DNA from: a virus
Reading direction: 5' to 3' (one strand)
DNA length: 33,061 nucleotides
Virus record (IMG/VR): IMGVR_UViG_3300044821_000201
A program made the translations under genes and the position numbers. Below are positions 16,882 to 29,236 of this stretch, piece after piece; the first letter of the stretch is position 1, and the number at the start of each line of letters is the position of its first letter. The notes under the pieces are model-generated. The model was not told the DNA's origin. It did no database searches and worked only from the letters and a program-made list of their open reading frames with translations.

Positions 16882-16968
16882 GCGGCGTGAAAGCGGAGGT
16901 GGTCCTCCCACTCGGCTGTAAACCGAGCGCCCTCGGGCAAGAGGTTCGATTCCTTCCACGCCGCACCA
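16882..16968 (+). tRNA. tRNA-Tyr(GTA)
   Basis: 8-bp acceptor gcggcgtg/cacgccgc. Anticodon arm ctcgg-cuGUAaa-ccgag. Long variable arm. T-loop TTCGATT. ACCA 3' end encoded. D-arm atypical. Confidence 0.6.
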
Positions 16969-17020
16969 GATGTTTCACGAAGAAAGGAAGTACGGAAAGA
17001 AAACCGCGGCTCGCTGAAAG

Positions 17021-17093
17021 CGGGTCCGAGGTGTTGTGGCGGCATGCTGGGCTTTTACCCCACGCGGCGCGGGTTCGAACCCCGCCGGACTCA
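17021..17093 (+). tRNA. tRNA-Lys(TTT)-like
   Basis: Acceptor gggtccg/cggactc (one G-U). T-arm gcggg-TTCGAAC-cccgc. Anticodon loop cuUUUac on a 4-bp stem with C-C at 27:43. Weak D-stem gtgt/gcat. Confidence 0.4.
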
Positions 17094-17104
17094 TTCTCTC
17101 TTTC

Positions 17105-17175
17105 GCGCTTGTAGCTCATTGGTCGAGCCGACGGTTCTTACCCGTCAGGACGAGGTTCGATCCCTCGCAGGCGCA
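17105..17175 (+). tRNA. tRNA-Lys(CTT)
   Basis: Acceptor gcgcttg/caggcgc. D-arm TAGCTCATTGGTCGAGC. Anticodon arm gacgg-uuCUUac-ccgtc. T-loop TTCGATC. Confidence 0.65.
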
Positions 17176-17176
17176 C

Positions 17177-17250
17177 TCCGGGATCGTCTAACGGCAGGAC
17201 AACGAGCTCTGACCTCGTGAAAGTTGGTTCGAATCCAGCTCCCGGAACCA
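17177..17250 (+). tRNA. tRNA-Gln(CTG)
   Basis: Acceptor tccggga/tcccgga. D-stem gtc/gac. Anticodon arm acgag-cuCUGac-ctcgt. T-loop TTCGAAT. ACCA encoded. Begins 1 nt after the previous tRNA. Confidence 0.65.
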
Positions 17251-17370
17251 AGGCCCTCGATAGGGGGCCCTGACCTTTGACAACCTAAAAGCGGCGTGCC
17301 GGTGAGCAAAGCGTTCACGGAGGGCTCCCGCTCGTACGAGGGGGTGGCCACCAGCCGCCCCCGTTCTCAT

Positions 17371-17442
17371 TCCGTCCTAGCACAATGGCCGTGCGCTCGC
17401 CTGTTAAGCGAGATTATCCTGGTTCGAGTCCGGGGGACGGAG
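17371..17442 (+). tRNA. tRNA-Asn(GTT)
   Basis: Acceptor tccgtcc/ggacgga. D-stem gcac/gtgc. Anticodon arm ctcgc-cuGUUaa-gcgag. T-loop TTCGAGT. Confidence 0.65.
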
Positions 17443-17449
17443 CAAGAAA

Positions 17450-17517
17450 GCCGGCTCGGTCATGGGACCACCATCTTTTGTAATGATGTCAGGACGGTTC
17501 GATCCCGTCAGTCGGCT
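17450..17517 (+). tRNA. tRNA-Thr(TGT), compressed D-arm
   Basis: Acceptor gccggct/agtcggc. T-arm gacgg-TTCGATC-ccgtc. Anticodon loop uuUGUaa on catc/gatg stem with U-U at 31:39. 68 nt. Confidence 0.4.
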
Positions 17518-17560
17518 CCGTCCCCCGGCAGACGGGGCGAAAGACATAGTCTGCCTCCAG

Positions 17561-17632
17561 GGCCCATTCGACCACTGGCTAAGTCGGCGGTCTTTCCAAC
17601 CGCAGAACGGGGATCGATACCCCGATGGGTCA
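17561..17632 (+). tRNA. tRNA-Glu(TTC)
   Basis: Acceptor ggcccat/atgggtc. D-stem gac/gtc. Anticodon arm gcggt-cuUUCca-accgc. Unusual T-loop ATCGATA in cgggg/ccccg stem. Confidence 0.5.
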
Positions 17633-17674
17633 CCGCGCGGGCACAAGCCAACCGCTTTAAAAACTCGCACCGAC

Positions 17675-17747
17675 TAATCAATCTGTCTCGAAAGCTAACC
17701 TGGTGGAAGCATCCGGCTGAAAACCGGAGGGTGTCGGTTCGATCCCG
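17675..17747 (+). tRNA. tRNA-Phe(GAA)
   Basis: Acceptor gtctcga/tcgagac. Anticodon arm tccgg-cuGAAaa-ccgga. T-arm gtcgg-TTCGATC-ccgac. Confidence 0.7.
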
Positions 17748-18433
17748 ACTCGAGACACAGAGTATCTTGAGTGTCCTTTCAAGTGTTTTCTGACGGCGTT
17801 GTCGGAAACCCCGAGAAAAGTGCCTGCTCCCCTGAAACCGAGTTCGCGGACCATACTAACGAGGTGATCGCGGCTTGGCCATACCACTTTGAATTTTGTA
17901 CCGACTTTCGATATGTGATCACAGGCCACACACGACTTAGCACTTTTACTTATGGCCGCTCCGCATAGGCAGTGTTTTCTGATTTTCTTCTTTTTTCCGC
18001 GGGAATAGGTCGGTGTCTGAGAGTGACAATTTGGACATAACAGACGAAGATTTGACAGTAGGTAATTTCTCCTGTCGCCGTCCACATGGTCGAGTTGGAG
18101 GGTTATTTTCTGACCCATCCAATCAACTAACTTGCATTTACTGCATTCATTCGGCAAAATCCCGGCCTTCACCAGCCTATTTTTGATACTACTGCTCCCA
18201 TTCGAATCTTTACAGAGGAGTTCGGAAAGAGGTCTCGGCCGTGATAATGTCTGGACGTACGGCAATAGATGTGATGTATTCAGTCCGAGCCTTAATATGT
18301 GCCTATCCAGGCTTCGAAAATTTCCAGCGCCATGAGAACTCAAACCGAGTTTTCTTATTGTTTCGGCCTTAGAGAGACTCGTCGATAGAGCGATCCTTAA
18401 CTGATGGTCAGTCCATTTTCTTATGGGCATCAT
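17678..18433 (-). CDS. HNH homing endonuclease (N-terminal HNH, C-terminal Zn-finger/HTH-like DNA-binding region, I-HmuI-like layout)
   Basis: Motif DHVDGDRRNYLLSNLRLLCPNCHSQT. Low-GC island. The 3' end overlaps tRNA-Phe on the opposite strand; C-terminal ...RVGIEPTPSGF is the reverse-strand translation of the tRNA T-arm. Confidence 0.8.
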   Translation of the reverse strand: MMPIRKWTDHQLRIALSTSLSKAETIRKLGLSSHGAGNFRSLDRHILRLGLNTSHLLPYVQTLSRPRPLSELLCKDSNGSSSIKNRLVKAGILPNECSKCKLVDWMGQKITLQLDHVDGDRRNYLLSNLRLLCPNCHSQTPTYSRGKKKKIRKHCLCGAAISKSAKSCVACDHISKVGTKFKVVWPSRDHLVSMVRELGFRGAGTFLGVSDNAVRKHLKGHSRYSVSRVGIEPTPSGFQPDASTRLAFETD

Positions 18434-18464
18434 AGAACGTTACCGTTTCAACTGGTTCGACGTT

Positions 18465-18538
18465 CGGAGTGCGGGCTCAAGGCGGGCCGCCTGATTTGGG
18501 ATCAGGATATCAGGTGAGTTCGATTCTCACCACTCCGA
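18465..18538 (+). tRNA. tRNA-Pro(TGG)
   Basis: Acceptor cggagtg/cactccg. Anticodon arm cctga-uuUGGga-tcagg. T-arm gtgag-TTCGATT-ctcac. Confidence 0.55.
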
Positions 18539-18543
18539 CGAAC

Positions 18544-18615
18544 GGGTTCCTAGTGTAGTGGTCTGCACAGCTGATTGTGGCTCAGCTAGTCCGGGTCCGA
18601 TTCCCGGGGTTCCCT
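18544..18615 (+). tRNA. tRNA-His(GTG)-like, defective acceptor stem
   Basis: Anticodon arm gctga-uuGUGgc-tcagc. D-stem gtg/cac. T-arm ccggg-TCCGATT-cccgg. Acceptor gggttcc/ggttccc has tandem U-U mismatches and no G-1. Confidence 0.35.
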
Positions 18616-18619
18616 CAAC

Positions 18620-18689
18620 GCTCCCGCCGGCGGATCCGGTGGACCCTTTCCTAAAGGGACTTACGAAGGCTCGACCCCTTCCGGGAGCG
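18620..18689 (+). tRNA. tRNA-Arg(CCT)
   Basis: Acceptor gctcccg/cgggagc shared with other Arg tRNAs. Anticodon loop uuCCUaa on a 4-bp stem. Atypical T-loop CTCGACC (stem gaagg/ccttc). 70 nt. Confidence 0.45.
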
Positions 18690-18761
18690 CAAAAGACGGC
18701 TGGATCTTCCTAACGGGTCGCACCCGGAGGTGCCGGTGGACCGGCAAACAAATCAGCCCAT

Positions 18762-18833
18762 GCCTCGTGAGCCAGCAAGTGTGGGCACCCGCCTGTCGAG
18801 CGGAGGAGAGGGGAGCGTTACCCCTACGGGGCG
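18762..18833 (+). tRNA. tRNA-Asp(GTC) with noncanonical T-loop AGCGTTA
   Basis: Acceptor gcctcgt/acggggc. Anticodon loop cuGUCga. T-arm agggg-AGCGTTA-cccct. Confidence 0.45.
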
Positions 18834-18837
18834 CTAT

Positions 18838-18909
18838 AGGTCTGAGGCTTAGGTAGCCGGCGAGACTCCAAATCTCGCGACGACGTGGTTCGATTCCACG
18901 CAGACCTGC
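18838..18909 (+). tRNA. tRNA-Trp(CCA)
   Basis: Acceptor aggtctg/cagacct. Anticodon arm cgaga-cuCCAaa-tctcg. T-arm cgtgg-TTCGATT-ccacg. Confidence 0.6.
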
Positions 18910-18923
18910 AGGAAGAGCATAAC

Positions 18924-18994
18924 GGGGATGGACGCGGAAGGCCGCTGGCTTCTCCTGCAAAGAAGCCGTCAGGGAGCGTTACCCTGCATCTCCA
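18924..18994 (+). tRNA. tRNA-Ala(TGC)-like with noncanonical T-loop AGCGTTA
   Basis: Acceptor ggggatg/catctcc with G3-U70. Anticodon arm cttct-ccUGCaa-agaag. T-arm caggg-AGCGTTA-ccctg. Confidence 0.45.
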
Positions 18995-19000
18995 CGAAAC

Positions 19001-19071
19001 GCCGTCTCAGCACGATGGTCGTGCTCTCCCCTGGTATGGGAGCGGATCGGGTTCGACTCCCGAAGGCGGCT
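19001..19071 (+). tRNA. tRNA-Thr(GGT)
   Basis: Acceptor gccgtct/aggcggc. D-arm gcac-gatggtc-gtgc. Anticodon arm ctccc-cuGGUau-gggag. T-arm tcggg-TTCGACT-cccga. Confidence 0.65.
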
Positions 19072-19122
19072 CCGGCGGTCCCGAAAGCCTCGCTCCGGCG
19101 ACGGCGAGTAGGGACGGCCAAT

Positions 19123-19193
19123 GCGACCTTGGCCGAATGGTTAGGCCTCTGCCTTCCAAGCAGAAGAAGCGGGTTCGATTCCCGCAGGTCGCT
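19123..19193 (+). tRNA. tRNA-Gly(TCC)
   Basis: Acceptor gcgacct/aggtcgc. Anticodon arm tctgc-cuUCCaa-gcaga. T-arm gcggg-TTCGATT-cccgc. Confidence 0.65.
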
Positions 19194-19205
19194 CTCCGCC
19201 ATGAG

Positions 19206-19278
19206 CGCGGGCAAGGCCGACTGGTGAGGCGGAAATCTGCCAAGTTTTCACAGGAGGGTCCGATCCCCTCTGCCCGCT
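19206..19278 (+). tRNA. tRNA-Gly(GCC)
   Basis: Acceptor gcgggca/tgcccgc. Anticodon arm gaaat-cuGCCaa-gtttt. T-arm gaggg-TCCGATC-ccctc. Confidence 0.55.
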
Positions 19279-19285
19279 CCGAGAC

Positions 19286-19357
19286 GACGCGCAGCACTGG
19301 CCCGTGCTGAGAGGTCTGCAAAACCGCTACGGCCCGGTCCGATTCCGGGGCGCGTCT
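19286..19357 (+). tRNA. tRNA-Cys(GCA)
   Basis: Acceptor gacgcgc/gcgcgtc. D-stem gcac/gtgc. Anticodon arm gaggt-cuGCAaa-accgc. T-arm cccgg-TCCGATT-ccggg. Confidence 0.55.
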
Positions 19358-19364
19358 CCGACAT

Positions 19365-19432
19365 GCTCCCGCCGTTGGACGGCGATGGGTCTTCTAAGCC
19401 CGCTCGGCCAGGTTCGAATCCTGGCGGGAGCG
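19365..19432 (+). tRNA. tRNA-Arg(TCT), reduced D-arm
   Basis: Acceptor gctcccg/cgggagc. Anticodon arm tgggt-cuUCUaa-gcccg. T-arm ccagg-TTCGAAT-cctgg. 68 nt. Confidence 0.45.
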
Positions 19433-19443: not shown

Positions 19444-19515
19444 GCCCCGTTCGACTACTGGCTAGGTCGGGACCCTCTCAAGGTCCAGGAACCGGATCGA
19501 TACCGGTACGGGGTG
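19444..19515 (+). tRNA. tRNA-Glu(CTC)
   Basis: Acceptor gccccgt/acggggt. D-stem gac/gtc. Anticodon arm ggacc-cuCUCaa-ggtcc. T-loop ATCGATA (as in tRNA-Glu(TTC)). Confidence 0.55.
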
Positions 19516-19533: not shown

Positions 19534-19604
19534 GTCCCCGCCTAGGGATTTAGGCATTGACGCTACGAACGTCGACTGCGCAGGCTCGACTCCTGCCGGG
19601 GACT
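19534..19604 (+). tRNA. tRNA-Arg(ACG)
   Basis: Acceptor gtccccg/cggggac. Anticodon arm tgacg-cuACGaa-cgtcg. T-arm gcagg-CTCGACT-cctgc. D-stem ccta/tagg abuts the acceptor stem. Confidence 0.5.
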
Positions 19605-19615: not shown

Positions 19616-19684
19616 GCTCTCGCCGGCGGATCCGGCCCTGCCCCTCCGAAGGGCGGACATGCTGTTCGACTCAGCACGGGAGCG
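19616..19684 (+). tRNA. tRNA-Arg(CCG)
   Basis: Acceptor gctctcg/cgggagc. Anticodon arm tgccc-cuCCGaa-gggcg. T-arm tgctg-TTCGACT-cagca. 69 nt. Confidence 0.5.
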
Positions 19685-19685: not shown

Positions 19686-19759
19686 TGCGGGCGAGTGAAA
19701 CGGTTTACACACTGGGCTCATAACCCACGTAACAGCTGGTTCGACTCCAGTGCCCGCTA
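19686..19759 (+). tRNA. tRNA-Met(CAT), initiator-like
   Basis: Anticodon arm tggg-cuCAUaa-ccca with three consecutive G-C pairs (initiator hallmark). Acceptor tgcgggc/gcccgct with 1:72 mismatch. T-arm gctgg-TTCGACT-ccagt. Confidence 0.5.
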
Positions 19760-19760: not shown

Positions 19761-19829
19761 GGTGGCAACGCAAGGCGCGACGCGGCTCTCATAAGGCCGG
19801 CGGCTGTGGTTCAAGTCCACGTGCCACCA
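19761..19829 (+). tRNA. tRNA-Met or Ile2 (CAT), elongator type
   Basis: Acceptor ggtggca/tgccacc. Anticodon arm cggct-cuCAUaa-ggccg. T-arm tgtgg-TTCAAGT-ccacg. Short D-arm. 69 nt. Confidence 0.5.
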
Positions 19830-19830: not shown

Positions 19831-19902
19831 TCCAGGGTGGTGTAGCGGAAGCATGCAGGCCTTTGAAGCCTTGCGACCCGCGTTCGAATCGCGGACCTGG
19901 AA
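19831..19902 (+). tRNA. tRNA-Gln(TTG)
   Basis: Acceptor tccaggg/acctgga (G-A at 7:66). D-stem gtgt/gcat. Anticodon loop cuUUGaa. T-arm ccgcg-TTCGAAT-cgcgg. Confidence 0.5.
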
Positions 19903-19906: not shown

Positions 19907-19978
19907 CGGAGACAACGCTCAGGGTGGGCGGCGCCGTTCGGGGCGGTGTGTTGGCGGGTTCGATCCCCGCGTCTCCGA
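19907..19978 (+). tRNA. tRNA-Pro(CGG)
   Basis: Acceptor cggagac/gtctccg. Anticodon arm cgccg-uuCGGgg-cggtg. T-arm gcggg-TTCGATC-cccgc. Confidence 0.6.
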
Positions 19979-19984: not shown

Positions 19985-20058
19985 GCTGGACGAGAGCAGC
20001 AAGAGAAGCCGGCGGTCTTACAAGCCGCAGTCGCCCGGAGCGTTACCGGGGTCCAGCA
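19985..20058 (+). tRNA. tRNA-Val(TAC) with noncanonical T-loop AGCGTTA
   Basis: Acceptor gctggac/gtccagc. Anticodon arm gcggt-cuUACaa-gccgc. T-arm cccgg-AGCGTTA-ccggg. Weak D-arm. Confidence 0.45.
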
Positions 20059-20062: not shown

Positions 20063-20144
20063 GTCCGCTTGGTGGAATTGGCATACACAGCCGACTTAAA
20101 ACCGGCCGCCCTCGGGCATCCCGGATCGTTGCCGGGAGCGGACA
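20063..20144 (+). tRNA. tRNA-Leu(TAA)
   Basis: Acceptor gtccgct/agcggac. Anticodon loop cuUAAaa (A-C at 31:39). Long variable arm cgccctcgggcat. T-arm cccgg-ATCGTTG-ccggg. Confidence 0.5.
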
Positions 20145-20148: not shown

Positions 20149-20220
20149 CTGCCTCAACGCTCTGGTTGAGCTGCGGGGGCTTATATCTCTTGCGGGCCGG
20201 TCCGATTCCGGCGGGGCGGA
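20149..20220 (+). tRNA. tRNA-Ile(TAT)-like, probably degenerate
   Basis: Acceptor ctgcctc/ggggcgg (two G-U). D-stem gctc/gagc. T-arm gccgg-TCCGATT-ccggc. Anticodon arm ggggg-cuUAUau-ctctt is G-U rich. Confidence 0.3.
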
Positions 20221-20233: not shown

Positions 20234-20305
20234 GGAGCTGGACGGTCTGGTTGACCTTTGTCGCCTGATAAGCGACCCGGCCGTGTTCGAATCACGGCAG
20301 CTCCA
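20234..20305 (+). tRNA. tRNA-Ile(GAT)
   Basis: Acceptor ggagctg/cagctcc. D-stem ggtc/gacc. Anticodon arm gtcgc-cuGAUaa-gcgac. T-arm ccgtg-TTCGAAT-cacgg. Confidence 0.6.
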
Positions 20306-20309: not shown

Positions 20310-20385
20310 GCAGGATGAGCCAGCAAGCGAAGGCGCCAGCTCGACAAGCTGGAATAGCTGGGAGCGTTACCCAGATCCTGTACCA
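20310..20385 (+). tRNA. tRNA-Val(GAC) with noncanonical T-loop AGCGTTA
   Basis: Acceptor gcaggat/atcctgt. Anticodon arm ccagc-ucGACaa-gctgg (C33). T-arm ctggg-AGCGTTA-cccag. ACCA encoded. Confidence 0.45.
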
Positions 20386-20386: not shown

Positions 20387-20469
20387 GCGCTCGTGGCGTA
20401 ATAGAAGCCGCGCTACGTTCAGACCGTAGTGGTCGCGAGACCGTCAAGGTGCAAGTCCTTGCGAGCGCA
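20387..20469 (+). tRNA. tRNA-Leu(CAG)
   Basis: Acceptor gcgctcg/cgagcgc. Anticodon arm ctacg-uuCAGac-cgtag. Long variable arm tggtcgcgagaccgt. T-arm caagg-TGCAAGT-ccttg. Confidence 0.55.
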
Positions 20470-20478: not shown

Positions 20479-20561
20479 CCCGACGTGGAGGAAAAGCAGA
20501 CTCGACATCCTGAGAAGGTGTTGGCCGCAAGGCCGTGCACGTGCAATTCGTGTCGTCGGGA
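20479..20561 (+). tRNA. tRNA-Leu(GAG)
   Basis: Acceptor cccgacg/cgtcggg. Anticodon arm acatc-cuGAGaa-ggtgt. Long variable arm tggccgcaaggccgt. T-arm gcacg-TGCAATT-cgtgt. Confidence 0.55.
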
Positions 20562-20565: not shown

Positions 20566-20654
20566 GCACATATGGCGAAATGCAAACGCATCTGATTCAA
20601 AACCAGACGGGGGTTAAACCCCCCTTGCCGGTTCAATCCCGGCTATGTGCACCA
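20566..20654 (+). tRNA. tRNA-Leu(CAA)
   Basis: Acceptor gcacata/tatgtgc. D-stem gcg/cgc. Anticodon loop uuCAAaa (A-C at 31:39). Variable arm with ggggg/ccccc stem. T-arm gccgg-TTCAATC-ccggc. ACCA encoded. Confidence 0.6.
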
Positions 20655-20828
20655 TGTTTCATCCAATAGCCCGGAGGTGGTGTTTCTATCCCCCTTGATT
20701 TACATCGCTTCTTTACCCCTGAAGAACTGACTCCTAAATTTTTCGCTATGGTTGTGGTCGGTTCTTTGAACAACATCAGTTGTAAGACCTCATCGGTCGG
20801 CCATGAAGTTTGTTTAAGGACCCTGAAT

Positions 20829-21347
20829 ATGTCTCACACGAGGACCCTTCTTCTCTCCCCCTGGTACGTCCCGATCAAGGTCCTGCGGTGGCAGGACGCA
20901 GTGAAGATGCGCTATGAGGGCACGGCCGAGGTGGTCGTGGAGTACGACGACGAGATCTCGTCCCCGTCAGTGACGTGGAGAATGCCGGCGGTCATGCGGC
21001 TGCGCAGGATGCCGAGCTCGCAGAAGCGCGGCGTGAAGTTCTCGCGCCTCAACGTGTACCAGAGGGACGGACATAGGTGCCAGTACTGCGGCGAGCGGTT
21101 CCCCCTCTCTTCCCTGTCCTACGACCACGTCGTACCCCGGGCCGCCGGCGGCCGGACGGACTGGACGAACATCGTCACCGCCTGCAAGCCGTGCAACACG
21201 AGGAAGGCGGACAAGAGCTGTGACGACTCGGGGATGTTCCCCCTCCGGCCGCCGGTGAGGCCGAGGTCGCTCCCGATGTCGGGGCCGGCCATCGATCCCG
21301 CCAGCGCCCCCGAGGAGTGGCTCGGGTTCGTCCGCGACCTGGTTTAG
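20829..21347 (+). CDS. HNH endonuclease
   Basis: Motif CQYCGERFPLSSLSYDHVVPRAAGGRTDWTNIVTACKPCNTRKAD. ATG at 20829 preferred over the ORF-track start at 20748. Low-GC leader. Confidence 0.8.
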   Translation: MSHTRTLLLSPWYVPIKVLRWQDAVKMRYEGTAEVVVEYDDEISSPSVTWRMPAVMRLRRMPSSQKRGVKFSRLNVYQRDGHRCQYCGERFPLSSLSYDHVVPRAAGGRTDWTNIVTACKPCNTRKADKSCDDSGMFPLRPPVRPRSLPMSGPAIDPASAPEEWLGFVRDLV

Positions 21348-21444
21348 AGCTACGCACGGAAGATGGACCGGCCAGGGGTCGGCGTCGCTTGGAAAGCGAA
21401 TGGAACCCGTAAGGGTTTGGGTTTCGAGTACCTCGTCTTCCGCA

Positions 21445-21523
21445 GAGGGTCTGGGCATGGCGCCAAACGGACCTTGAAAGTCCGCACATCTTATGATGAG
21501 CGTTCGATTCGCTGACCCTCTGC
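21445..21523 (+). tRNA. tRNA-Ser(TGA)
   Basis: Acceptor agagggt/accctct. Anticodon arm cggac-cuUGAaa-gtccg. Variable arm with catc/gatg stem. T-arm gagcg-TTCGATT-cgctg. Confidence 0.55.
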
Positions 21524-21540
21524 CGATGTCCCCATTCCCG

Positions 21541-21621
21541 GAAGGTGAATCCGCAGGGCGCGGAGCCCGGCTCGAAACCGGTGCGCACTTCACGGTGTGG
21601 CCTTCGATTGGTCCGCCTTCC
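21541..21621 (+). tRNA. tRNA-Ser(CGA)-like
   Basis: Acceptor gaaggtg/cgccttc. D-stem tccg/cgga. Anticodon loop cuCGAaa. ~15-nt variable arm. T-loop TTCGATT in a 4-bp stem (register irregular). Confidence 0.4.
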
Positions 21622-21630: not shown

Positions 21631-21712
21631 GGAAACTGATTCCCCTGTGGAGGGGAGCGTGTTTGCTAAACACTGCGCGCGAAAGCGTGACGTTCGACTC
21701 GTCCTGTTTCCG
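21631..21712 (+). tRNA. tRNA-Ser(GCT)
   Basis: Acceptor ggaaact/tgtttcc (6 bp). D-stem cccc/gggg. Anticodon arm gtgt-uuGCUaa-acac. Variable arm cgc-GAAA-gcg. T-arm tgacg-TTCGACT-cgtcc. Confidence 0.5.
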
Positions 21713-21717: not shown

Positions 21718-21785
21718 GCCGCCGTCTCTCGGAGAGCGTGCCCTTTCGTAATGGGTCCGGTCCGGTTCGACTCCGGACGGCGGCT
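21718..21785 (+). tRNA. tRNA-Thr(CGT), reduced D-arm
   Basis: Acceptor gccgccg/cggcggc. Anticodon loop uuCGUaa on a 4-bp stem. T-arm tccgg-TTCGACT-ccgga. 68 nt. Confidence 0.4.
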
Positions 21786-25787: not shown

Positions 25788-25861
25788 CCGCCGATAGCTC
25801 AGTGGTAACGAGCAGGGTTCTTATAAAGCTCAGGTCGATGGTTCAATTCCATCTCGGCGGA
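25788..25861 (+). tRNA. tRNA-Ile(TAT)
   Basis: Acceptor ccgccga/tcggcgg. Canonical D-arm TAGCTCAGTGGTAACGAGC. Anticodon arm gggtt-cuUAUaa-agctc. T-arm gatgg-TTCAATT-ccatc. Confidence 0.65.
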
Positions 25862-26684: not shown

Positions 26685-26743
26685 ATAGATGATAGAAAGT
26701 TCAAATCGGAATCAGCTCACTGTAATATGAAGGAGGAGAACAT

Positions 26744-27037: not shown

Positions 27038-27213
27038 AGACGGTGAACCTGCACCTCGACGGCGGGAACTACGGCCGAGAGGAGCTCTTCCGTCTCGTGG
27101 AAGGCCGCGAGCACGCCCTGATCTCCGGGTGCGCGCACTGCGGCCGCCCGCTCGGCAGGGTCGGCGACGTGTCGACGCCGGCTGCGTCCCGTGCATTGCG
27201 CGGGACGTCATGA
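27034..27213 (+). CDS. possible small Cys/His protein (59 aa)
   Basis: GTGA overlap with HU stop; below the 60-aa cutoff of the ORF track; weak. Confidence 0.25.
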   Translation: MKTVNLHLDGGNYGREELFRLVEGREHALISGCAHCGRPLGRVGDVSTPAASRALRGTS

Positions 27214-27222
27214 ACAGATAAC

Positions 27223-27294
27223 GGGCTCGTCGTCCAATCGGGAGGACCGCGCTTTCGCAAAGCGCAAACGGAGGTTCGAATCCTCCCGAGTCCA
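27223..27294 (+). tRNA. tRNA-Ala(CGC)
   Basis: Acceptor gggctcg/cgagtcc with G3-U70. D-stem gtcc/ggac. Anticodon arm gcgct-uuCGCaa-agcgc. T-arm ggagg-TTCGAAT-cctcc. Confidence 0.7.
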
Positions 27295-27312
27295 CACTGG
27301 TAGAATACGGGA

Positions 27313-27930
27313 ATGGAGCAATTCCTTCTTCCACCCACCACGTCTACCAGCTACGACGGCCGACAAAGGAAGGTATTCCCGAAACCGTGTGAGCAATGTC
27401 AGACTGTGTTCTGGGCTCCGAAGCATGTGCTCGGAAAGCGTCGACATTGCTCGCTCCAATGCTTCCGCGACTCCAGGAAGAAGAGGGTCAAACTCGTTTG
27501 CGCCTTTTGCGAAACGAGTTTCGAGAGGGTCCTCAACAAAGCGGATAGCCCGAAAGGCGAACACAGGTTCTGCAGTCGCTTCTGCAAAGACAAGGCGCAG
27601 ACAACAGAAGTCGGCTTGATAACGTACCTACACTACAAAGACGGCGTCGCCAACTACAGGGAGAGGGCGCTCCGCATCCACGGGAAAATATGTAAGAGAT
27701 GCGGATACGACGAAGACGAGAGGATGCTCGACGCCCACCATGTGAACGGGGACAGAACGGACCCGAGTCCTGAGAACCTCCGGGTACTTTGCGTCTGGTG
27801 TCACGCCCTGAAGACCAGAGGTGTGGAGGAGCACGAACGGGTTCCTAGTTCAATCGGGAGAACGGCGGTCCTGCAAACCGCAGACGGAGGGTTCGACTCC
27901 CCCGGGATCCACGAAGAGACGGGGTCTTAG
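27313..27930 (+). CDS. HNH endonuclease with N-terminal CxxC...HCSxxC Zn-finger repeats
   Basis: Motif CKRCGYDEDERMLDAHHVNGDRTDPSPENLRVLCVWCHALKT. The 3' end reads through tRNA-Ala(TGC) on the same strand. Confidence 0.8.
   Translation: MEQFLLPPTTSTSYDGRQRKVFPKPCEQCQTVFWAPKHVLGKRRHCSLQCFRDSRKKRVKLVCAFCETSFERVLNKADSPKGEHRFCSRFCKDKAQTTEVGLITYLHYKDGVANYRERALRIHGKICKRCGYDEDERMLDAHHVNGDRTDPSPENLRVLCVWCHALKTRGVEEHERVPSSIGRTAVLQTADGGFDSPGIHEETGS
27839..27911 (+). tRNA. tRNA-Ala(TGC)
   Basis: Acceptor gggttcc/gggatcc with G3-U70. D-arm TAGTTCAATCGGGAGAAC. Anticodon arm gcggt-ccUGCaa-accgc. T-arm gaggg-TTCGACT-ccccc. Confidence 0.6.
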
Positions 27931-27997
27931 CTCATTTGGGTAGAGCGCTTCGCTGGCAGCGAAGAGGCGGCGGGTTCGACTCCCGCAGACTCCACCA
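27921..27997 (+). tRNA. tRNA-Ala(GGC)
   Basis: Acceptor ggggtct/agactcc with G3-U70. D-arm TAGCTCATTTGGGTAGAGC. Anticodon arm cttcg-cuGGCag-cgaag. T-arm gcggg-TTCGACT-cccgc. ACCA encoded. Confidence 0.7.
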
Positions 27998-28051
27998 TGA
28001 AACCAAAGAGAACTCGTACTTCACGGGGCTAATTACAGCGTAAGCTCGTCC

Positions 28052-28453
28052 ATGGACGAGGAGCGAGAGGAGTGCGAGAGGCGCTGGTGGTTCATGTCGT
28101 ACCACGGGGTCCCGGACGGCGGGTCGCCCCTCCCGTGTCTCCCGTCCGCCCCGGGCGCCGTTCCGGATCGGGCCAGGCTCCGGCACTTCCGCGAGCACGG
28201 GAAGGACGAGCACCACGACCCGGCCCGCGCCATGGCCCCGTACGCCCTCATCCTCCAGATGATGATCGAGGACCTGGGCTCCTCGGACCTCCGGTCCGCC
28301 AGGGTGTCCTTCGGGGACGCGCTCGTGGCGGCCTGCTCGAGGCTCAACATCGACCACGTGGCGCTCCCCAAGGACATCCAGGGCGTGCTCCTCCGGAGCG
28401 CCTTCACCATGATAACGAGCGGCGGCATTCCGGGCGCCCCGGAGGCCGGATGA
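28052..28453 (+). CDS. hypothetical protein
   Basis: Protein-like composition; the overlapping frame 28072-28533 is Arg/Pro junk. Confidence 0.45.
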   Translation: MDEEREECERRWWFMSYHGVPDGGSPLPCLPSAPGAVPDRARLRHFREHGKDEHHDPARAMAPYALILQMMIEDLGSSDLRSARVSFGDALVAACSRLNIDHVALPKDIQGVLLRSAFTMITSGGIPGAPEAG

Positions 28454-28456
28454 CAC

Positions 28457-28527
28457 GCCGGCTTAGCACTGGGGAGTGTTCCCGTTTTGTACTCGGGACC
28501 AAGCGGGTTCGACTCCCGTGGCCGGCT
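28457..28527 (+). tRNA. tRNA-Thr(TGT), second copy
   Basis: Acceptor gccggct/ggccggc. D-stem gcac/gtgt. Anticodon loop uuUGUac with U-U at 31:39. T-arm gcggg-TTCGACT-cccgt. Confidence 0.45.
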
Positions 28528-28529
28528 CC

Positions 28530-28838
28530 GTGACGACCTACGACTACGTCTTCAGGGCCGCGGCCGGCATGTACATCGCCCTCTGGGTCATCCGCCTGGC
28601 CAGGGCCGGAGTCCGTCCTTACGTGGCCGTCCCCATAATCGCGGCCATGACCTGGAGCCTGTTCTCCCGGGCCCAGGGCTCAAACTACGTCTTCATAGCC
28701 TGCATGCTCGCCGCCCACGTCTCCATGAGGGGAGGCGGCCGCGGGGGAGGGCTCGGCAAGAAGCTCGCCGCGAGGTGGGACTCCCTGACAGACGTCGTCC
28801 GTTCATCGTTCGGCCGCGACGCCGCGGCCTCATCGTAG
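28530..28838 (+). CDS. small integral membrane protein (3 predicted TM helices)
   Basis: GTG at 28530 just after the tRNA. Hydrophobic segments MYIALWVIRLA, YVAVPIIAAMTWSLF, YVFIACMLAAHV. Confidence 0.4.
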   Translation: MTTYDYVFRAAAGMYIALWVIRLARAGVRPYVAVPIIAAMTWSLFSRAQGSNYVFIACMLAAHVSMRGGGRGGGLGKKLAARWDSLTDVVRSSFGRDAAASS

Positions 28839-28843
28839 ATTAC

Positions 28844-28914
28844 GCCCCCATAGCTCAGTGGTAGAGCTCCGGCATGGTAAGCCGAAGACCCGGGTCCGAT
28901 TCCCGGTGTGGGCT
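28844..28914 (+). tRNA. tRNA-Thr(GGT), second copy
   Basis: Acceptor gccccca/tgtgggc (one mismatch). D-arm TAGCTCAGTGGTAGAGC. Anticodon loop auGGUaa. T-arm ccggg-TCCGATT-cccgg. Confidence 0.5.
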
Positions 28915-28923
28915 CCGTTGTGT

Positions 28924-28994
28924 GCGGGATTGACGTATTGGCTGCGTCTCAGCCTTCCAAGCTGATGAAGCCGGTTCGATTCCGGCATTCCGCT
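28924..28994 (+). tRNA. tRNA-Gly(TCC), second copy
   Basis: Acceptor gcgggat/attccgc. Anticodon arm tcagc-cuUCCaa-gctga. T-arm gccgg-TTCGATT-ccggc. Confidence 0.6.
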
Positions 28995-29001
28995 CTCGTT
29001 C

Positions 29002-29073
29002 GCGACGTTAGTCTAGAGGTCAGGCACTTCCTTGCCAAGGAAGATCACGCGAGTTCGAATCTCGCACGTCGCT
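29002..29073 (+). tRNA. tRNA-Gly(GCC), second copy
   Basis: Acceptor gcgacgt/acgtcgc. Anticodon arm cttcc-uuGCCaa-ggaag. T-arm gcgag-TTCGAAT-ctcgc. Fits canonical numbering. Confidence 0.7.
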
Positions 29074-29090
29074 CCGTACATTCTCCGCGC

Positions 29091-29164
29091 GCGGGTGTAG
29101 CTCAGTGGCAGAGCAGACGGTTCCCATCCTTCAGACAGGGTTTCGATTACCCTCACCCGCTCCA
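29091..29164 (+). tRNA. tRNA-Gly(CCC)
   Basis: Acceptor gcgggtg/cacccgc. D-arm TAGCTCAGTGGCAGAGC. Anticodon loop uuCCCau. T-arm agggt-TTCGATT-accct. CCA encoded. Confidence 0.65.
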
Positions 29165-29165
29165 T

Positions 29166-29236
29166 GTCGACGTGTCCGAATGGCTAGGTGCGGGATTGCA
29201 ACCCCCGTCATGCGGGTTCGATTCCTGCCGTCGACT
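29166..29236 (+). tRNA. tRNA-Cys(GCA), second copy
   Basis: Acceptor gtcgacg/cgtcgac. Anticodon arm cggga-uuGCAac-ccccg. T-arm gcggg-TTCGATT-cctgc. The alternative reading as Ala(TGC) is rejected because there is no G3-U70. Confidence 0.5.

What the first reader, a model, noticed from the sequence alone, without database searches (positions are those of the whole stretch)
16882..29236. Near-complete private tRNA repertoire (~48 genes, all 20 amino acids) in tightly packed arrays
Manual cloverleaf folding gives about 34 tRNAs at 16882-20654, many separated by only 1-10 nt. A further 4 lie at 21445-21785 and 10 at 25788-29236. The Arg set is complete (CCT, TCT, ACG, CCG), as is the Ala set (TGC, GGC, CGC) and the Gly set (TCC, GCC, CCC). 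There are four or five Leu and three Ser isoacceptors, an initiator-like CAT plus an elongator CAT, and a tRNA-Ile(TAT) that decodes AUA without lysidine. CCA is encoded in only a subset (Tyr, Gln-CTG, Val-GAC, Leu-CAA, Ala-GGC, Gly-CCC). A repertoire of this size is typical of huge phages and giant viruses and suggests translational autonomy or counter-defence against host tRNA-cleaving systems.
Basis: partly seen in the sequence, partly recalled or inferred. Interest (0 to 1): 0.7.

Follow-up and report, generated by a model that had tools for sequence, protein, structure and literature searches.

The report
Near-complete tRNA gene set in phage
A fragment of a large uncultured bacteriophage carries 49 real tRNA genes covering all 20 amino acids, which is a known habit of huge phages; four of them have an unusual, virus-enriched "elbow" that standard tRNA finders and genome annotations miss.

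Summary
The + strand of 16882-29238 holds 49 tRNA genes (34 + 5 + 10) with 41 anticodons for all 20 amino acids. A tRNA-Pro-like gene lies at 32431 and a tmRNA at 4688. ARAGORN at its default threshold. Rfam's tRNA model reaches its threshold for only 23. A covariance model built only from tRNAs outside the window finds 45 of the 49 at E<=0.002, all on the + strand, with nothing else better than E=0.36. The four Ser tRNAs are supported by covariation with a relative's Ser block.

The element is a fragment of a large phage. Its marker protein has relatives only in IMG/VR contigs and in 462-735 kb huge phages, and one relative keeps the same array layout. Large phage tRNA sets are already known (up to 67 genes), so the array is a new member of a known kind.

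The less ordinary part is that Asp-GTC, Ala-TGC, Val-TAC and Val-GAC have a D-loop AGCAAG and a T-loop AGCGTTA. This alternative elbow recurs across viral contigs, is rare in cellular genomes, shows 18:55 and 17:59 covariation, and is unannotated in a RefSeq cyanophage.

The parts
4688..5054 (+). tmRNA, tag peptide ANDNNTVHALAA
   Evidence: ARAGORN. Rfam RF00023 77.8 bits, full length.
5703..6128 (+). RRM-type RNA-binding protein (141 aa)
   Evidence: Pfam RRM_1 2e-21. NCBIfam Rbp_regulator 1e-26, below cut-off.
6937..7338 (+). Peptidyl-tRNA hydrolase, PTH2 type (133 aa)
   Evidence: Pfam PTH2 9e-23. phrog_1866 2e-16.
7341..8285 (+). HDIG-domain protein resembling only the C-terminal half of an actinobacterial CCA-adding enzyme. 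The start codon is uncertain.
   Evidence: TIGR02692 5e-32, profile positions 253-456 of 466, far below cut-off. HDIG 2e-8. Pfam HD.
16882..16964 (+). tRNA-Tyr(GTA), long variable arm, CCA encoded
   Evidence: R1 20.2 bits, E 3.5e-4. Rfam tRNA-Sec model 44.2 bits. ARAGORN 86.8.
17022..17092 (+). tRNA-Lys(TTT)
   Evidence: ARAGORN 110.3. Rfam 45. R1 46.6 bits.
17105..17174 (+). tRNA-Lys(CTT)
   Evidence: ARAGORN 119.8. Rfam 56.1. R1 56.6.
17177..17246 (+). tRNA-Gln(CTG), CCA encoded
   Evidence: ARAGORN 111.6. Rfam 54.4. R1 55.6.
17371..17441 (+). tRNA-Asn(GTT)
   Evidence: ARAGORN 119.0. Rfam 55.9. R1 62.1.
17450..17516 (+). tRNA-Thr(TGT)
   Evidence: ARAGORN 106.6. No Rfam hit. R1 25.4.
17561..17631 (+). 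tRNA-Glu(TTC), T-loop ATCGATA, C37
   Evidence: ARAGORN 107.9. No Rfam hit. R1 51.3.
17685..17756 (+). tRNA-Phe(GAA)
   Evidence: ARAGORN 105.9. Rfam 58.8. R1 60.0.
17678..18433 (-). HNH endonuclease gene in a low-GC island that splits the array. Its ORF end overlaps tRNA-Phe on the opposite strand.
   Evidence: phrog_10822 4e-42. Pfam HNH_3 weak.
18465..18537 (+). tRNA-Pro(TGG)
   Evidence: ARAGORN 106.3. Rfam 26.7, below the gathering score. R1 44.5.
18544..18614 (+). tRNA-His(GTG), two U-U mismatches in the acceptor stem
   Evidence: ARAGORN 115.7. Rfam 47.6. R1 52.2.
18620..18688 (+). tRNA-Arg(CCT), T-loop CTCGACC
   Evidence: Missed by ARAGORN and Rfam. Scanner score 17. R1 23.3 bits, E 4e-5.
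18762..18832 (+). tRNA-Asp(GTC), alternative elbow (D-loop AGCAAGTGTG, T-loop AGCGTTA)
   Evidence: ARAGORN 95.2, below threshold. No Rfam hit. R1 35.0.
18838..18907 (+). tRNA-Trp(CCA)
   Evidence: ARAGORN 113.3. Rfam 32.9. R1 30.7.
18924..18993 (+). tRNA-Ala(TGC), alternative elbow (T-loop AGCGTTA), G3:U70, C33
   Evidence: ARAGORN 92.9, below threshold. No Rfam hit. R1 22.5.
19001..19070 (+). tRNA-Thr(GGT)
   Evidence: ARAGORN 117.1. No RF00005 hit. R1 53.0.
19123..19192 (+). tRNA-Gly(TCC)
   Evidence: ARAGORN 122.2. Rfam 66.3. R1 71.3.
19207..19277 (+). tRNA-Gly(GCC)
   Evidence: ARAGORN 106.9. Rfam 40.5. R1 40.8.
19286..19356 (+). tRNA-Cys(GCA)
   Evidence: ARAGORN 100.2. R1 20.4 bits, E 3e-4.
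19365..19431 (+). tRNA-Arg(TCT)
   Evidence: ARAGORN mis-parses it as Pro-tgg 19341-19433. Scanner score 19.5. R1 32.0.
19444..19514 (+). tRNA-Glu(CTC), T-loop ATCGATA
   Evidence: ARAGORN 110.4. No Rfam hit. R1 55.1.
19534..19603 (+). tRNA-Arg(ACG), T-loop CTCGACT
   Evidence: Missed by ARAGORN and Rfam. Scanner score 16.5. R1 27.5.
19616..19683 (+). tRNA-Arg(CCG)
   Evidence: ARAGORN 109.9. R1 22.9.
19686..19758 (+). tRNA-Met(CAT), initiator-like (U1-U72 mismatch, three G:C pairs next to the anticodon loop)
   Evidence: ARAGORN 100.3. Rfam 40.5. R1 42.0. Sequence.
19761..19828 (+). tRNA-Met(CAT), elongator-like
   Evidence: ARAGORN 101.1. R1 29.2.
19831..19901 (+). tRNA-Gln(TTG)
   Evidence: ARAGORN 111.8. 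Rfam 45.4. R1 47.3.
19907..19977 (+). tRNA-Pro(CGG)
   Evidence: ARAGORN 100.4. R1 38.2.
19985..20057 (+). tRNA-Val(TAC), alternative elbow (D-loop AGCAAGAGAA, T-loop AGCGTTA)
   Evidence: Missed by ARAGORN and Rfam. Scanner score 18. R1 39.6.
20063..20143 (+). tRNA-Leu(TAA), T-loop ATCGTTG
   Evidence: ARAGORN 110.7. R1 32.7.
20149..20219 (+). tRNA-Ile(TAT), copy 1
   Evidence: ARAGORN 101.6. R1 17.7 bits, E 0.002. This is the weakest type-I member.
20234..20304 (+). tRNA-Ile(GAT)
   Evidence: ARAGORN 110.6. R1 36.1.
20310..20381 (+). tRNA-Val(GAC), alternative elbow (D-loop AGCAAGCGAA, T-loop AGCGTTA), C33, CCA encoded
   Evidence: ARAGORN 93.1, below threshold. No Rfam hit. R1 36.5.
20387..20468 (+). 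tRNA-Leu(CAG), T-loop TGCAAGT (G55) with an A18-type D-loop
   Evidence: ARAGORN 111.8. Rfam 44.3. R1 33.7.
20479..20560 (+). tRNA-Leu(GAG), T-loop TGCAATT (G55) with an A18-type D-loop
   Evidence: ARAGORN 108.6. R1 25.8.
20566..20650 (+). tRNA-Leu(CAA), CCA encoded
   Evidence: ARAGORN 110.9. Rfam 51. R1 27.7.
20748..21347 (+). HNH endonuclease gene between the main block and the Ser block, with an ortholog at the same position in the relative
   Evidence: Pfam HNH_5 3e-15. phrog_16726 8e-28. 44.7% identity over 132 aa to L251.
   Evidence: ARAGORN 98.8, below threshold. Covariation with the relative's Ser tRNAs. C74.
21444..21521 (+). tRNA-Ser(TGA)
   Evidence: ARAGORN 103.7..
21540..21621 (+). 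tRNA-Ser(CGA)
   Evidence: ARAGORN 88.8, below threshold..
21631..21711 (+). tRNA-Ser(GCT)
   Evidence: ARAGORN 97.7, below threshold..
21718..21784 (+). tRNA-Thr(CGT)
   Evidence: ARAGORN 95.7, below threshold. R1 28.1.
25788..25860 (+). tRNA-Ile(TAT), copy 2
   Evidence: ARAGORN 117.1. Rfam 60. R1 62.6.
27223..27293 (+). tRNA-Ala(CGC), G3:U70
   Evidence: ARAGORN 114.1. Rfam 59.4. R1 63.5.
27839..27910 (+). tRNA-Ala(TGC), copy 2, G3:U70, C33
   Evidence: ARAGORN 113.4. Rfam 50.8. R1 55.0.
27921..27993 (+). tRNA-Ala(GGC), G3:U70, CCA encoded
   Evidence: ARAGORN 121.8. Rfam 62.5. R1 67.6.
28457..28526 (+). tRNA-Thr(TGT), copy 2. ARAGORN's relaxed run calls it Gln-ttg; the acceptor stem and discriminator match the other Thr genes.
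   Evidence: Rfam 38. R1 42.8..
28844..28913 (+). tRNA-Thr(GGT), copy 2
   Evidence: ARAGORN 110.9. Rfam 58.8. R1 57.9.
28924..28993 (+). tRNA-Gly(TCC), copy 2
   Evidence: ARAGORN 116. Rfam 55. R1 59.3.
29002..29072 (+). tRNA-Gly(GCC), copy 2
   Evidence: ARAGORN 117.1. Rfam 58. R1 61.7.
29091..29160 (+). tRNA-Gly(CCC), CCA encoded
   Evidence: ARAGORN 113.4. Rfam 57.1. R1 53.0.
29166..29235 (+). tRNA-Cys(GCA), copy 2
   Evidence: ARAGORN 108.3. Rfam 45.9. R1 45.2.
   Evidence: Rfam 39.4. R1 33.9 bits with alignment.

Best explanation
This is the tRNA island of a large, uncultured tailed phage from a lineage linked to the 'huge phages'. It holds 49 same-strand tRNA genes in three blocks, interrupted by HNH endonuclease genes and small ORFs. 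A tmRNA, a PTH2 peptidyl-tRNA hydrolase, an HDIG protein and an RRM protein lie upstream.

Shown here:
- The genes fold as cloverleaves.
- They carry identity marks that are consistent within each isotype.
- Together they read essentially every sense codon the element uses.
- The block layout is conserved in a distant relative.

Inferred:
- The blocks are transcribed as multi-tRNA precursors.
- Host RNase P cuts the 5' ends. Spacers as short as 2 nt leave N73-C74 on the upstream tRNA.
- The 3' ends are trimmed and completed by a CCA-adding enzyme.
- Host synthetases charge the tRNAs.

The most likely benefit is a replacement tRNA pool. It would keep phage translation going when host tRNAs are depleted, cleaved or poorly matched to phage codons. 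Four members, plus two Leu tRNAs in part, use an alternative D-loop/T-loop elbow (A18:G55, A54:U58, 17:59 pair). That elbow may also make them independent of, or invisible to, factors that read the canonical T-loop.
For: The genes are real:
- ARAGORN makes 37 calls.
- Model R1, built without any window sequence, finds 45 in-range hits at E<=0.002, all on the + strand, with a clean gap to noise.
- The loop-agnostic scanner gives 40 hits versus 0 in both controls.
- The Ser tRNAs show covariation in 25 of 28 pairs.
- Most candidates fold as cloverleaves even as an unconstrained MFE structure.
- C74 follows 48 of 49 genes.

Identity marks: G3:U70 in 4 of 4 Ala; U73 in 5 of 5 Gly and 2 of 2 Cys; A73 in all Leu, Ile, Val, Ala, Lys, Phe and Met; C1:G72 in both Pro.

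Coverage: 41 anticodons read 58-60 of 61 sense codons. Only CUA, at 1.7 per thousand, is left unread.

Phage origin:
- Relatives of the MVP-like protein occur only in IMG/VR contigs and in 462-735 kb uncultured phages.
- The relative L003/L251 has about 40 tRNAs in the same block-HNH-Ser layout, with an orthologous HNH gene.
- Phage-type replication genes lie in the relatives' flanks.
- The HNH genes match PHROG families.
- The plasmid collection has no relative.

Published context: up to 67 tRNAs plus tmRNAs in huge phages (PMC7162821); the tRNA-depletion and nuclease-evasion hypothesis (PMC10264068; PMC11555353).

Alternative elbow:
- The 11-mer GGAGCGTTACC occurs 4 times on the + strand against 0.57 expected.
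- 56 of 120 viral pattern hits are cloverleaves, against 4 of 122 in cellular genomes.
- G55 goes with loss of the GG motif in the D-loop, Fisher p=1.6e-21.
- 17:59 covaries as A:U or U:A, 25 of 25 against 15 of 16, p=2.5e-10.
Against: - There are no expression, processing or charging data.
- The host is unknown, so neither codon compensation nor nuclease evasion can be tested.
- The window contains no phage structural gene. Phage origin rests on relatives and on one shared marker protein.
- 26 of 49 genes fall below Rfam's tRNA gathering score.
- Some genes have odd features: U-U mismatches in the His acceptor stem, C33 in Val-GAC and both Ala-TGC, C37 in Glu-TTC, and only 17.7 bits for Ile-TAT copy 1. 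A minority may therefore be impaired or non-functional.
- The consensus promoter and terminator scan shows nothing above chance, so the transcription units are unknown.
- Only MVP-like and HNH proteins are shared with the relatives' loci.
Confidence: 0.75

Rival explanations
1. Codon compensation only. The tRNAs exist to supply codons that the phage uses but the host decodes poorly, and they play no role against host defences or tRNA depletion.
For: For a 62% GC genome the element uses AGG (28% of Arg codons), AUA (17% of Ile) and GGG (37% of Gly) heavily. It carries Arg-CCT plus Arg-TCT, two Ile-TAT genes and Gly-CCC.
Against: The set is nearly complete and includes tRNAs for the commonest codons (GAC, GAG, AAG, CTC, GCC), which any host should decode well. 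Published analysis of tRNA-rich mycobacteriophages found little support for compensation (PMC10264068). Host codon usage is unknown.
Confidence: 0.3
2. The window is not from a phage. It is a tRNA array unit on a bacterial chromosome or megaplasmid.
For: The window has no capsid, tail or terminase gene. It carries cell-like genes: HU, a response-regulator receiver domain, a DnaJ domain and an RRM protein. Some large plasmids are reported to carry similar translation gene suites (PMC7162821).
Against: The plasmid collection has no homolog of the marker protein and no array-level DNA match. The marker's only relatives are viral contigs and huge phages. The syntenic relative sits on viral contigs of about 150 kb beside phage-type replication genes. 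The alternative-elbow tRNAs are strongly virus-enriched.
Confidence: 0.06
3. A large share of the loci are decaying pseudogenes or tRNA-like remnants, so the working repertoire is much smaller than 49.
For: 26 of 49 fall below the Rfam gathering score, and 12 are missed or mis-parsed by default ARAGORN. T-loops depart from TTC in about 15 genes. Three genes have C33 and one has C37. The gene at 32431 has a 6-nt anticodon loop.
Against: All stems are kept. The loop deviations follow covariation rules seen across unrelated phages. Identity marks and C74 are kept in the low scorers too. A phage-trained model scores them well above noise. The Ser block and the alternative-elbow class are conserved in distant relatives.
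Confidence: 0.12
4. The alternative-elbow RNAs are not decoding tRNAs. They are tRNA-like decoys, primers or targets, for example baits for host nucleases.
For: They lack U54 and U55, which are near-universal in elongator tRNAs. None has been shown to be charged.
Against: They have normal acceptor, anticodon and T stems, 7-nt anticodon loops and isotype-appropriate discriminators. The Ala member has G3:U70. Many copies elsewhere encode CCA. In this window they are the only Asp and Val tRNAs, so the set covers all 20 amino acids only if they decode.
Confidence: 0.1

Closest known systems
tRNA repertoires of huge phages (Al-Shayeb et al. 2020, PMC7162821)
   Same: Dozens of tRNAs (up to 67 reported) together with tmRNA and other translation-related genes on uncultured phage genomes. 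The window's MVP-like protein has 43-46% identical relatives in the 735 kb and 462 kb genomes LR756501 and LR756500.
   Different: No DNA-level similarity. In those two genomes no tRNAs lie within 20 kb of the MVP-like gene. The window is only 33 kb, so its genome size is unknown. No aminoacyl-tRNA synthetase is seen here.
IMG/VR contigs IMGVR_UViG_3300035152_000026 and IMGVR_UViG_3300034782_000041 (L003, L004, L251)
   Same: The MVP-like gene lies upstream. About 40 same-strand tRNAs are arranged as a main block ending in Leu-TAA and Leu-CAA, then an orthologous HNH gene, then a Ser block. The contig contains one AGCGTTA-elbow tRNA.
   Different: Only about 40% protein identity. There are fewer tRNAs, and the alternative-elbow member there is Phe-GAA rather than Asp, Ala or Val. 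No tmRNA or PTH2 homolog was found in the stretch fetched.
Cluster C1 mycobacteriophages (Bxz1-like; for example LordLeafolot, 32 tRNAs plus one tmRNA, PMC13014143)
   Same: A high-GC phage with more than 30 tRNAs and a tmRNA.
   Different: No sequence similarity in the phage collection. This set is larger and more complete.
Canonical bacterial tRNA elbow (G18:Psi55, G19:C56, T54:A58; review PMC4810234)
   Same: C56 and a D-loop G aligned with G19 are kept. The loops have the same lengths and the overall cloverleaf is the same.
   Different: In the alternative class position 18 is A, 55 is G, and 54 and 58 are swapped to A and U. D-loop position 17 also covaries with T-loop position 59 as a Watson-Crick pair.

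Membership tests
tRNA (canonical cloverleaf; Rfam RF00005) | Four-arm cloverleaf with 7/3-4/5/5 bp stems | tested here: met
   Loop-agnostic scanner. Model R1 finds 45 of 49 at E<=0.002. Covariation supports the four Ser tRNAs. MFE folds agree.
tRNA (canonical cloverleaf; Rfam RF00005) | 7-nt anticodon loop with U33 and a purine at 37 | tested here: met
   Met in 45 of 49. The exceptions are C33 in Val-GAC and both Ala-TGC, and C37 in Glu-TTC. The extra gene at 32431 has a 6-nt loop.
tRNA (canonical cloverleaf; Rfam RF00005) | T-loop T54-Psi55-C56 with G18 G19 in the D-loop | tested here: not met
   C56 is invariant, but about 15 of 49 have non-TTC T-loops: AGCGTTA x4, TGCAAGT/TGCAATT, ATCG... 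x3, CTCG... x2 and TCCG... x5. The G55 members have AG instead of GG in the D-loop.
tRNA (canonical cloverleaf; Rfam RF00005) | Score at or above the Rfam gathering threshold (29 bits) | tested here: inconclusive
   23 of 49 reach it. Only 13 of 39 in the first two blocks do so, even with lax filters. tRNAscan-SE was not available.
tRNA (canonical cloverleaf; Rfam RF00005) | Isotype identity elements consistent with the anticodon | tested here: met
   G3:U70 in 4 of 4 Ala. U73 in all Gly and Cys. A73 in all Leu, Ile, Val, Ala, Lys, Phe and Met. C1:G72 in both Pro. Long variable arm in Tyr, Leu and Ser. His lacks C73 and a G-1.
Huge/jumbo-phage tRNA island | Located on a phage genome | tested here: inconclusive
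   The window has no structural genes. Relatives are viral contigs and huge phages. The HNH genes match PHROG families. No plasmid relatives.
Huge/jumbo-phage tRNA island | Genome larger than 200 kb | not testable with these tools
   The window is 33 kb. The only source record found is a 3 kb Logan contig. The closest relatives are contigs of about 147-150 kb.
Huge/jumbo-phage tRNA island | Dozens of clustered same-strand tRNAs with other translation-related genes | tested here: met
   49 tRNAs, a tmRNA, PTH2, an HDIG protein and an RRM protein.
Huge/jumbo-phage tRNA island | tRNAs distinct from those of the host | not testable with these tools
   The host is not identified.
tmRNA (RF00023) | Full-length match with a tag reading frame ending in ALAA | tested here: met
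   77.8 bits against a 47-bit threshold, model positions 1-374. Tag ANDNNTVHALAA.
Bacterial or plasmid tRNA array unit | Embedded in a bacterial chromosome or plasmid backbone | tested here: not met
   No plasmid homolog of the marker protein and no array-level DNA match. No housekeeping or plasmid genes were seen among the ORFs scanned.
Class II CCA-adding enzyme (for ORF 7341-8285) | N-terminal nucleotidyltransferase head and neck | tested here: not met
   Only profile positions 253-456 of 466 of TIGR02692 are matched, at 111 bits against a 439-bit cut-off. PTH2 occupies the upstream frame.

The most novel reading that the evidence does not exclude
Asp-GTC, Ala-TGC, Val-TAC and Val-GAC belong to an undescribed, virus-specific structural class of tRNA. 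Its elbow is rebuilt with a D-loop AGC(A/U)AGNGAA and a T-loop AGCGU(U/A)A. A18:G55 replaces G18:Psi55, A54:U58 replaces T54:A58, and there is an extra 17:59 Watson-Crick pair. The class spans at least ten anticodons seen in viral contigs (Asn, Val, Cys, His, Ile x2, Glu, Phe, Pro, Asp). ARAGORN at default settings and Rfam miss it, and it is unannotated in RefSeq cyanophage genomes. It may let phage tRNAs work without host T-loop modification enzymes or escape factors that recognise the canonical elbow.
Probability: 0.45. Interest if true: 0.75.

Novelty: new member of a known kind. Interest (0 to 1): 0.55.

Why it matters
The array is another well-documented example that large phages can carry an almost full decoding set: 41 anticodons in about 12 kb. 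It is useful for comparative work but not surprising.

The practical lesson is about annotation. Standard tools recovered only 47-75% of the genes here. The misses are not random. They fall on tRNAs whose D-loop and T-loop co-vary in a way that recurs across unrelated viral contigs and in cultured cyanophages, where such a gene is unannotated. If that class is truly undescribed, two things follow. Phage tRNA counts and claims about missing isoacceptors are systematically too low. It would also be a natural experiment in rebuilding the tRNA elbow, with possible links to evasion of host tRNA-targeting immunity or independence from TrmA and TruB.

Tried and rejected
- **Known phage relatives.** Megablast and blastn of the array against 50,697 phage records gave no relative. 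tblastn of the 622-aa ORF, blastn of the PTH2-HD region and blastn of the tmRNA also found nothing, and the 622-aa ORF matched nothing in IMG/VR.
- **Source record.** The exact-protein look-up returned only a 3 kb Logan contig from SRR35360341, so neither the source genome nor the host was identified.
- **Promoters and terminators.** The consensus scan found nothing above the shuffled expectation.
- **Huge-phage synteny.** LR756501 and LR756500 have no tRNAs within 20 kb of their MVP-like gene, so synteny with those genomes was rejected.
- **HD protein as a CCA-adding enzyme.** Rejected because only the C-terminal HDIG half matches.
- **Recent duplication as the source of redundancy.** Rejected. 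No two tRNAs are more than 78% identical, and same-anticodon pairs are 56-73% identical.
- **Chance as the explanation for the AGCGTTA pattern.** Rejected for viral contigs, where match lengths peak at 50 nt and 56 of 120 hits are cloverleaves. Accepted for most hits in cellular genomes, where lengths are flat and 4 of 122 are cloverleaves.
- **More cultured examples.** A long-variable-arm Cys-GCA of the class had no match in cultured phages. An Asn-GTT member gave only a partial hit under a 'hypothetical protein' in an Acinetobacter phage.
- **Literature.** Searches for a description of the alternative elbow found none. The library lacks most subscription journals, so this is weak evidence of novelty.
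- **Gaps in the array.** The 124-nt gap at 17247-17370 and the 73-nt gap at 18689-18761 gave no tRNA-like hit with any method.

Full report

Yes. ARAGORN at default settings tRNAs, all on the + strand between 17022 and 29238, plus a tmRNA at 4688-5054. Lowering its threshold adds + strand candidates that sit exactly in the gaps of the array: Tyr-GTA, Asp-GTC, Ala-TGC, Val-GAC, three more Ser, Thr-CGT and a second Thr-TGT.

Rfam's general tRNA model is much less sensitive here. It gives 19 in-range hits at the gathering score on the whole window and 23 with laxer filters. Even when given only the array, it reaches threshold for 13 of the 39 genes in the first two blocks. It misses textbook cloverleaves such as Thr-GGT at 19001.

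- A cloverleaf scanner that ignores loop sequence gave 40 hits on the + strand at score >=17. It gave none on the - strand and none in three shuffles. It also recovered Arg-CCT, Arg-TCT, Arg-ACG and Val-TAC, which ARAGORN and Rfam miss or mis-parse.
- I built covariance model R1 from 110 phage tRNAs taken only from other loci and ran it over the whole window with filters off. It gave 46 hits at E<=0.002, every one on the + strand and every one at the curated coordinates. The next hit had E=0.36.

The four Ser tRNAs score weakly with this type-I model. Aligned with the four Ser tRNAs of a relative, they give a type-II cloverleaf in which 25 of 28 pairs show compensatory changes. The base after the discriminator is C in 48 of 49 genes (p=3e-24). 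That independently fixes all the 3' ends.

**2. The final count**

That makes 49 genes, 41 distinct anticodons and all 20 amino acids. A fiftieth, odd gene lies at 32431-32502.

Each specific claim holds.

- The four Arg, three Ala and three Gly anticodons are present.
- There are two Ile-TAT genes.
- One CAT tRNA has a U1-U72 mismatch and three G:C pairs next to the anticodon loop, which is initiator-like. A second CAT tRNA lacks these features.
- A full CCA is encoded in exactly Tyr, Gln-CTG, Val-GAC, Leu-CAA, Ala-GGC and Gly-CCC.
- Leu has four isoacceptors. Ser has four, not three.

**3. Are they likely to work?**

Most candidates form a cloverleaf even as an unconstrained MFE fold. Identity marks fit the anticodons.

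- All four Ala have G3:U70, including the odd-elbow one.
- All Gly and Cys have U73.
- All Leu, Ile, Val, Ala, Lys, Phe and Met have A73.
- Both Pro have C1:G72.
- Tyr has a long variable arm.

Several of these (long-arm Tyr, U73 in Gly and Cys) are, from my own knowledge of tRNA identity rules, bacterial traits.

No two genes are more than 78% identical, and same-anticodon pairs are 56-73% identical. The redundancy is therefore old or independently acquired, not recent duplication. The third block scores higher than the first with Rfam.

A few features are unusual, and some genes may be impaired:

- two U-U mismatches in the His acceptor stem;
- C33 in Val-GAC and in both Ala-TGC genes;
- C37 in Glu-TTC.

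**4. Decoding capacity**

I used 31 ORFs with a clear GC3 coding signature, 5,823 codons in total. The set reads 58 of 61 sense codons by simple wobble. It reads 60 if the lone Pro-UGG reads all four CCN codons. Only CUA is left unread, at 1.7 per thousand. The element uses AGG (28% of Arg), AUA (17% of Ile), GGG (37% of Gly) and CUC (51% of Leu) heavily.

**5. What is the element?**

There is no DNA-level relative among 50,697 phage records. The 875-aa protein at 363-2990 has major-vault-protein shoulder and repeat domains. It has 40-46% identical relatives in five IMG/VR contigs. Among deposited phages it matches only LR756501/LR756503 (735,411 bp) and LR756500 (462,018 bp). A 735 kb genome is the largest reported in the huge-phage study, PMC7162821.

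The closest IMG/VR relative is represented by two near-identical contigs of about 147-150 kb. It carries about 40 tRNAs downstream of that gene. The layout is the same: a main block ending in Leu-TAA and Leu-CAA, an HNH gene 44.7% identical to the window's, then a Ser block. Phage-type replication genes (Sak4-like, exonuclease, helicase, primase) flank the relatives. The plasmid collection has nothing comparable.

I therefore file the window as a fragment of a large phage. The window itself has no structural gene, and its genome size and host are unknown.

**6. Context**

Several translation-related genes lie upstream of the array on the same strand:

- a full-length tmRNA with tag ANDNNTVHALAA;
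- an RRM protein and a PTH2-type peptidyl-tRNA hydrolase;
- an HDIG protein that matches only the C-terminal half of an actinobacterial CCA-adding enzyme, so it is not a complete CCA-adding enzyme.

Two HNH genes split the array. An HU-like gene lies between the blocks.

**7. How it most likely works**

Shown here:

- All genes are in the same orientation.
- 35 of 48 spacers are 20 nt or shorter, and five are just 2 nt and read N73-C.
- C74 is near-universal and CC follows 20 genes, but a full CCA follows only 6.

Inferred:

- The genes are transcribed as multi-tRNA precursors.
- RNase P cuts at each 5' end.
- The 3' ends are trimmed and completed by a CCA-adding enzyme.
- Host synthetases charge the tRNAs; no synthetase is present in the window.

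No promoter or terminator signal rose above chance.

The benefit is most likely a replacement tRNA pool that keeps phage translation running when host tRNAs are depleted or cleaved. That is the hypothesis of PMC10264068 and PMC11555353. Codon compensation for AGG and AUA may add to it. Neither idea can be tested without the host.

**8. The unexpected part: an alternative tRNA elbow**

Asp-GTC, Ala-TGC (18924), Val-TAC and Val-GAC share the T-arm GGAGCGTTACC. It occurs 4 times on the + strand against 0.57 expected. Their T-loop is AGCGTTA instead of TTCRANY. Three of them have the D-loop AGCAAGNG and the Ala member has GGAAGG; none has the canonical GG dinucleotide at the elbow position. These are the genes that standard tools miss.

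Match lengths pile up at 50 nt. 56 of the 120 are well-formed cloverleaves. Their anticodons include GTT, TAC, GCA, GTG, GAT, TTC, GAA, TAT and TGG, and many have an encoded CCA. In 596 Gb of bacterial and archaeal genomes the first 122 matches have a flat length distribution. Only 4 are cloverleaves, at least two of them on short or unplaced MAG contigs.

I then scanned 1.26 Mb of fetched loci without regard to loop sequence and excluded the genes retrieved by the pattern itself.

- T-loops with U55 go with a GG-containing D-loop in 251 of 261 cases.
- T-loops with G55 do so in only 8 of 33; 24 of them have AG instead (Fisher p=1.6e-21).

MAFFT places that AG under the canonical GG, so position 18 is A while G19 is kept. 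C56 is nearly invariant, and positions 54 and 58 are swapped to A and U in the AGCGTTA class.

A further pair covaries. In scans that left T-loop position 59 free, AGCAAG D-loops go with T59 in 25 of 25 unique cloverleaves. AGCTAG D-loops go with A59 in 15 of 16 (p=2.5e-10). Matches that are not cloverleaves show a roughly even base there. Both states occur within the Val-TAC, Cys-GCA, Ile-GAT, Glu-TTC and His-GTG groups. One Val-TAC is a single-step intermediate. The switch has therefore happened more than once.

The relative L003 has one such tRNA, but it is Phe-GAA. Cultured Synechococcus phages (S-N03, MA10, MA01, ME01, MC09) carry a Val-TAC of the class. In RefSeq NC_070959.1 it lies at 100780-100851, in an unannotated gap beside an annotated tRNA-Asn. 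ARAGORN misses it, and model R1 scores it 31.4 bits.

Leu-CAG and Leu-GAG in the window also follow the A18/G55 rule.

I found no paper describing this class, and Rfam has no model that hits it. The paper library is incomplete, so novelty is uncertain.

**9. Verdict**

Large phage tRNA sets with a tmRNA are already known (up to 67 tRNAs, PMC7162821; 32 tRNAs plus a tmRNA in a C1 mycobacteriophage, PMC13014143). The array is therefore a new member of a known kind. The alternative-elbow tRNAs are the part most worth following up.

Noticed in passing
window 363-2990 (+): An 875-aa protein with major-vault-protein shoulder and repeat domains (MVP_shoulder 6e-24, Vault_3 5e-8). Its relatives are found only in IMG/VR viral contigs and in the 735 kb and 462 kb uncultured huge phages. 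There is no PHROG or NCBIfam family for it and no plasmid homolog. A vault-like protein conserved in large phages is unexplained.
   Followed up: partly
window 4688-5054 (+): A full-length one-piece tmRNA (tag ANDNNTVHALAA) in a local low-GC pocket (53% against about 63%). It has no blastn relative among deposited phages.
   Followed up: partly
window 6937-8285 (+): A PTH2-type peptidyl-tRNA hydrolase, a type I know mainly from archaea and eukaryotes. It is followed directly by an HDIG protein that matches only the C-terminal half of an actinobacterial CCA-adding enzyme. This could be a tRNA 3'-end repair or recycling pair; no function was tested.
   Followed up: partly
window 32431-32502 (+): A tRNA-Pro(CGG)-like gene (C1:G72, A73; Rfam 39.4 bits; R1 33.9 bits) whose anticodon loop has 6 nt (UUCGGA) instead of 7. 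It also has an A-C mismatch in the acceptor stem. It could be a pseudogene, or a tRNA with altered reading-frame behaviour.
   Followed up: partly
NC_070959.1 100780-100851 (L129 2501-2572); also MT162466, PP110483-PP110486: Cultured Synechococcus phages S-N03, MA10, MA01, ME01 and MC09 carry an alternative-elbow tRNA-Val(TAC) (D-loop AGCTAGTGAA, T-loop AGCGTAA). It is not annotated in GenBank or RefSeq, and ARAGORN misses it.
   Followed up: yes
window, position +2 after each tRNA acceptor end: C74 is encoded after 48 of 49 tRNAs (all but Lys-TTT), CC after 20 and a full CCA after 6. All five 2-nt spacers read N73-C. This suggests that 3' processing keeps C74 and relies on CCA completion.
   Followed up: partly
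window 18924, 20310, 27839 (C33); 17561 (C37): Anticodon-loop deviations: C33 in place of the near-universal U33 in Val-GAC and both Ala-TGC genes, and a pyrimidine at position 37 in Glu-TTC. This resembles the published idea that phage tRNAs vary their anticodon loops to escape nucleases. Not tested.
   Followed up: no
window 17760-18460 and 25000-27000: Two low-GC islands (about 45-53%) inside the tRNA region. The first is a - strand HNH gene (phrog_10822). The second holds a 284-aa - strand ORF (25830-26684) with only a weak zinc-finger match, next to Ile-TAT copy 2. These may be mobile insertions.
   Followed up: partly
window 19341-19433: ARAGORN's default call 'tRNA-Pro(tgg), 93 nt' overlaps tRNA-Cys. 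It is a mis-parse of tRNA-Arg(TCT) at 19365-19431.
   Followed up: yes
window 3730-4137, 12910-13695, 26744-27037, 29864-30577(-): Cell-like accessory genes lie around the array: a stand-alone response-regulator receiver domain, a protein with a C-terminal DnaJ domain, an HU-like DNA-binding protein and a dual-specificity-phosphatase-like protein.
   Followed up: no
window 17247-17370 and 18689-18761: Two spacers long enough to hold a tRNA (124 nt and 73 nt) show no tRNA-like signal with any method. The first contains a GC-rich hairpin at 17340-17362.
   Followed up: partly
L283, L284, L273, L309 and other IMG/VR contigs: An alternative-elbow tRNA-Cys(GCA) family with a long (about 19-nt) variable arm, which is unusual for tRNA-Cys. 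It has no match in cultured phages.
   Followed up: partly
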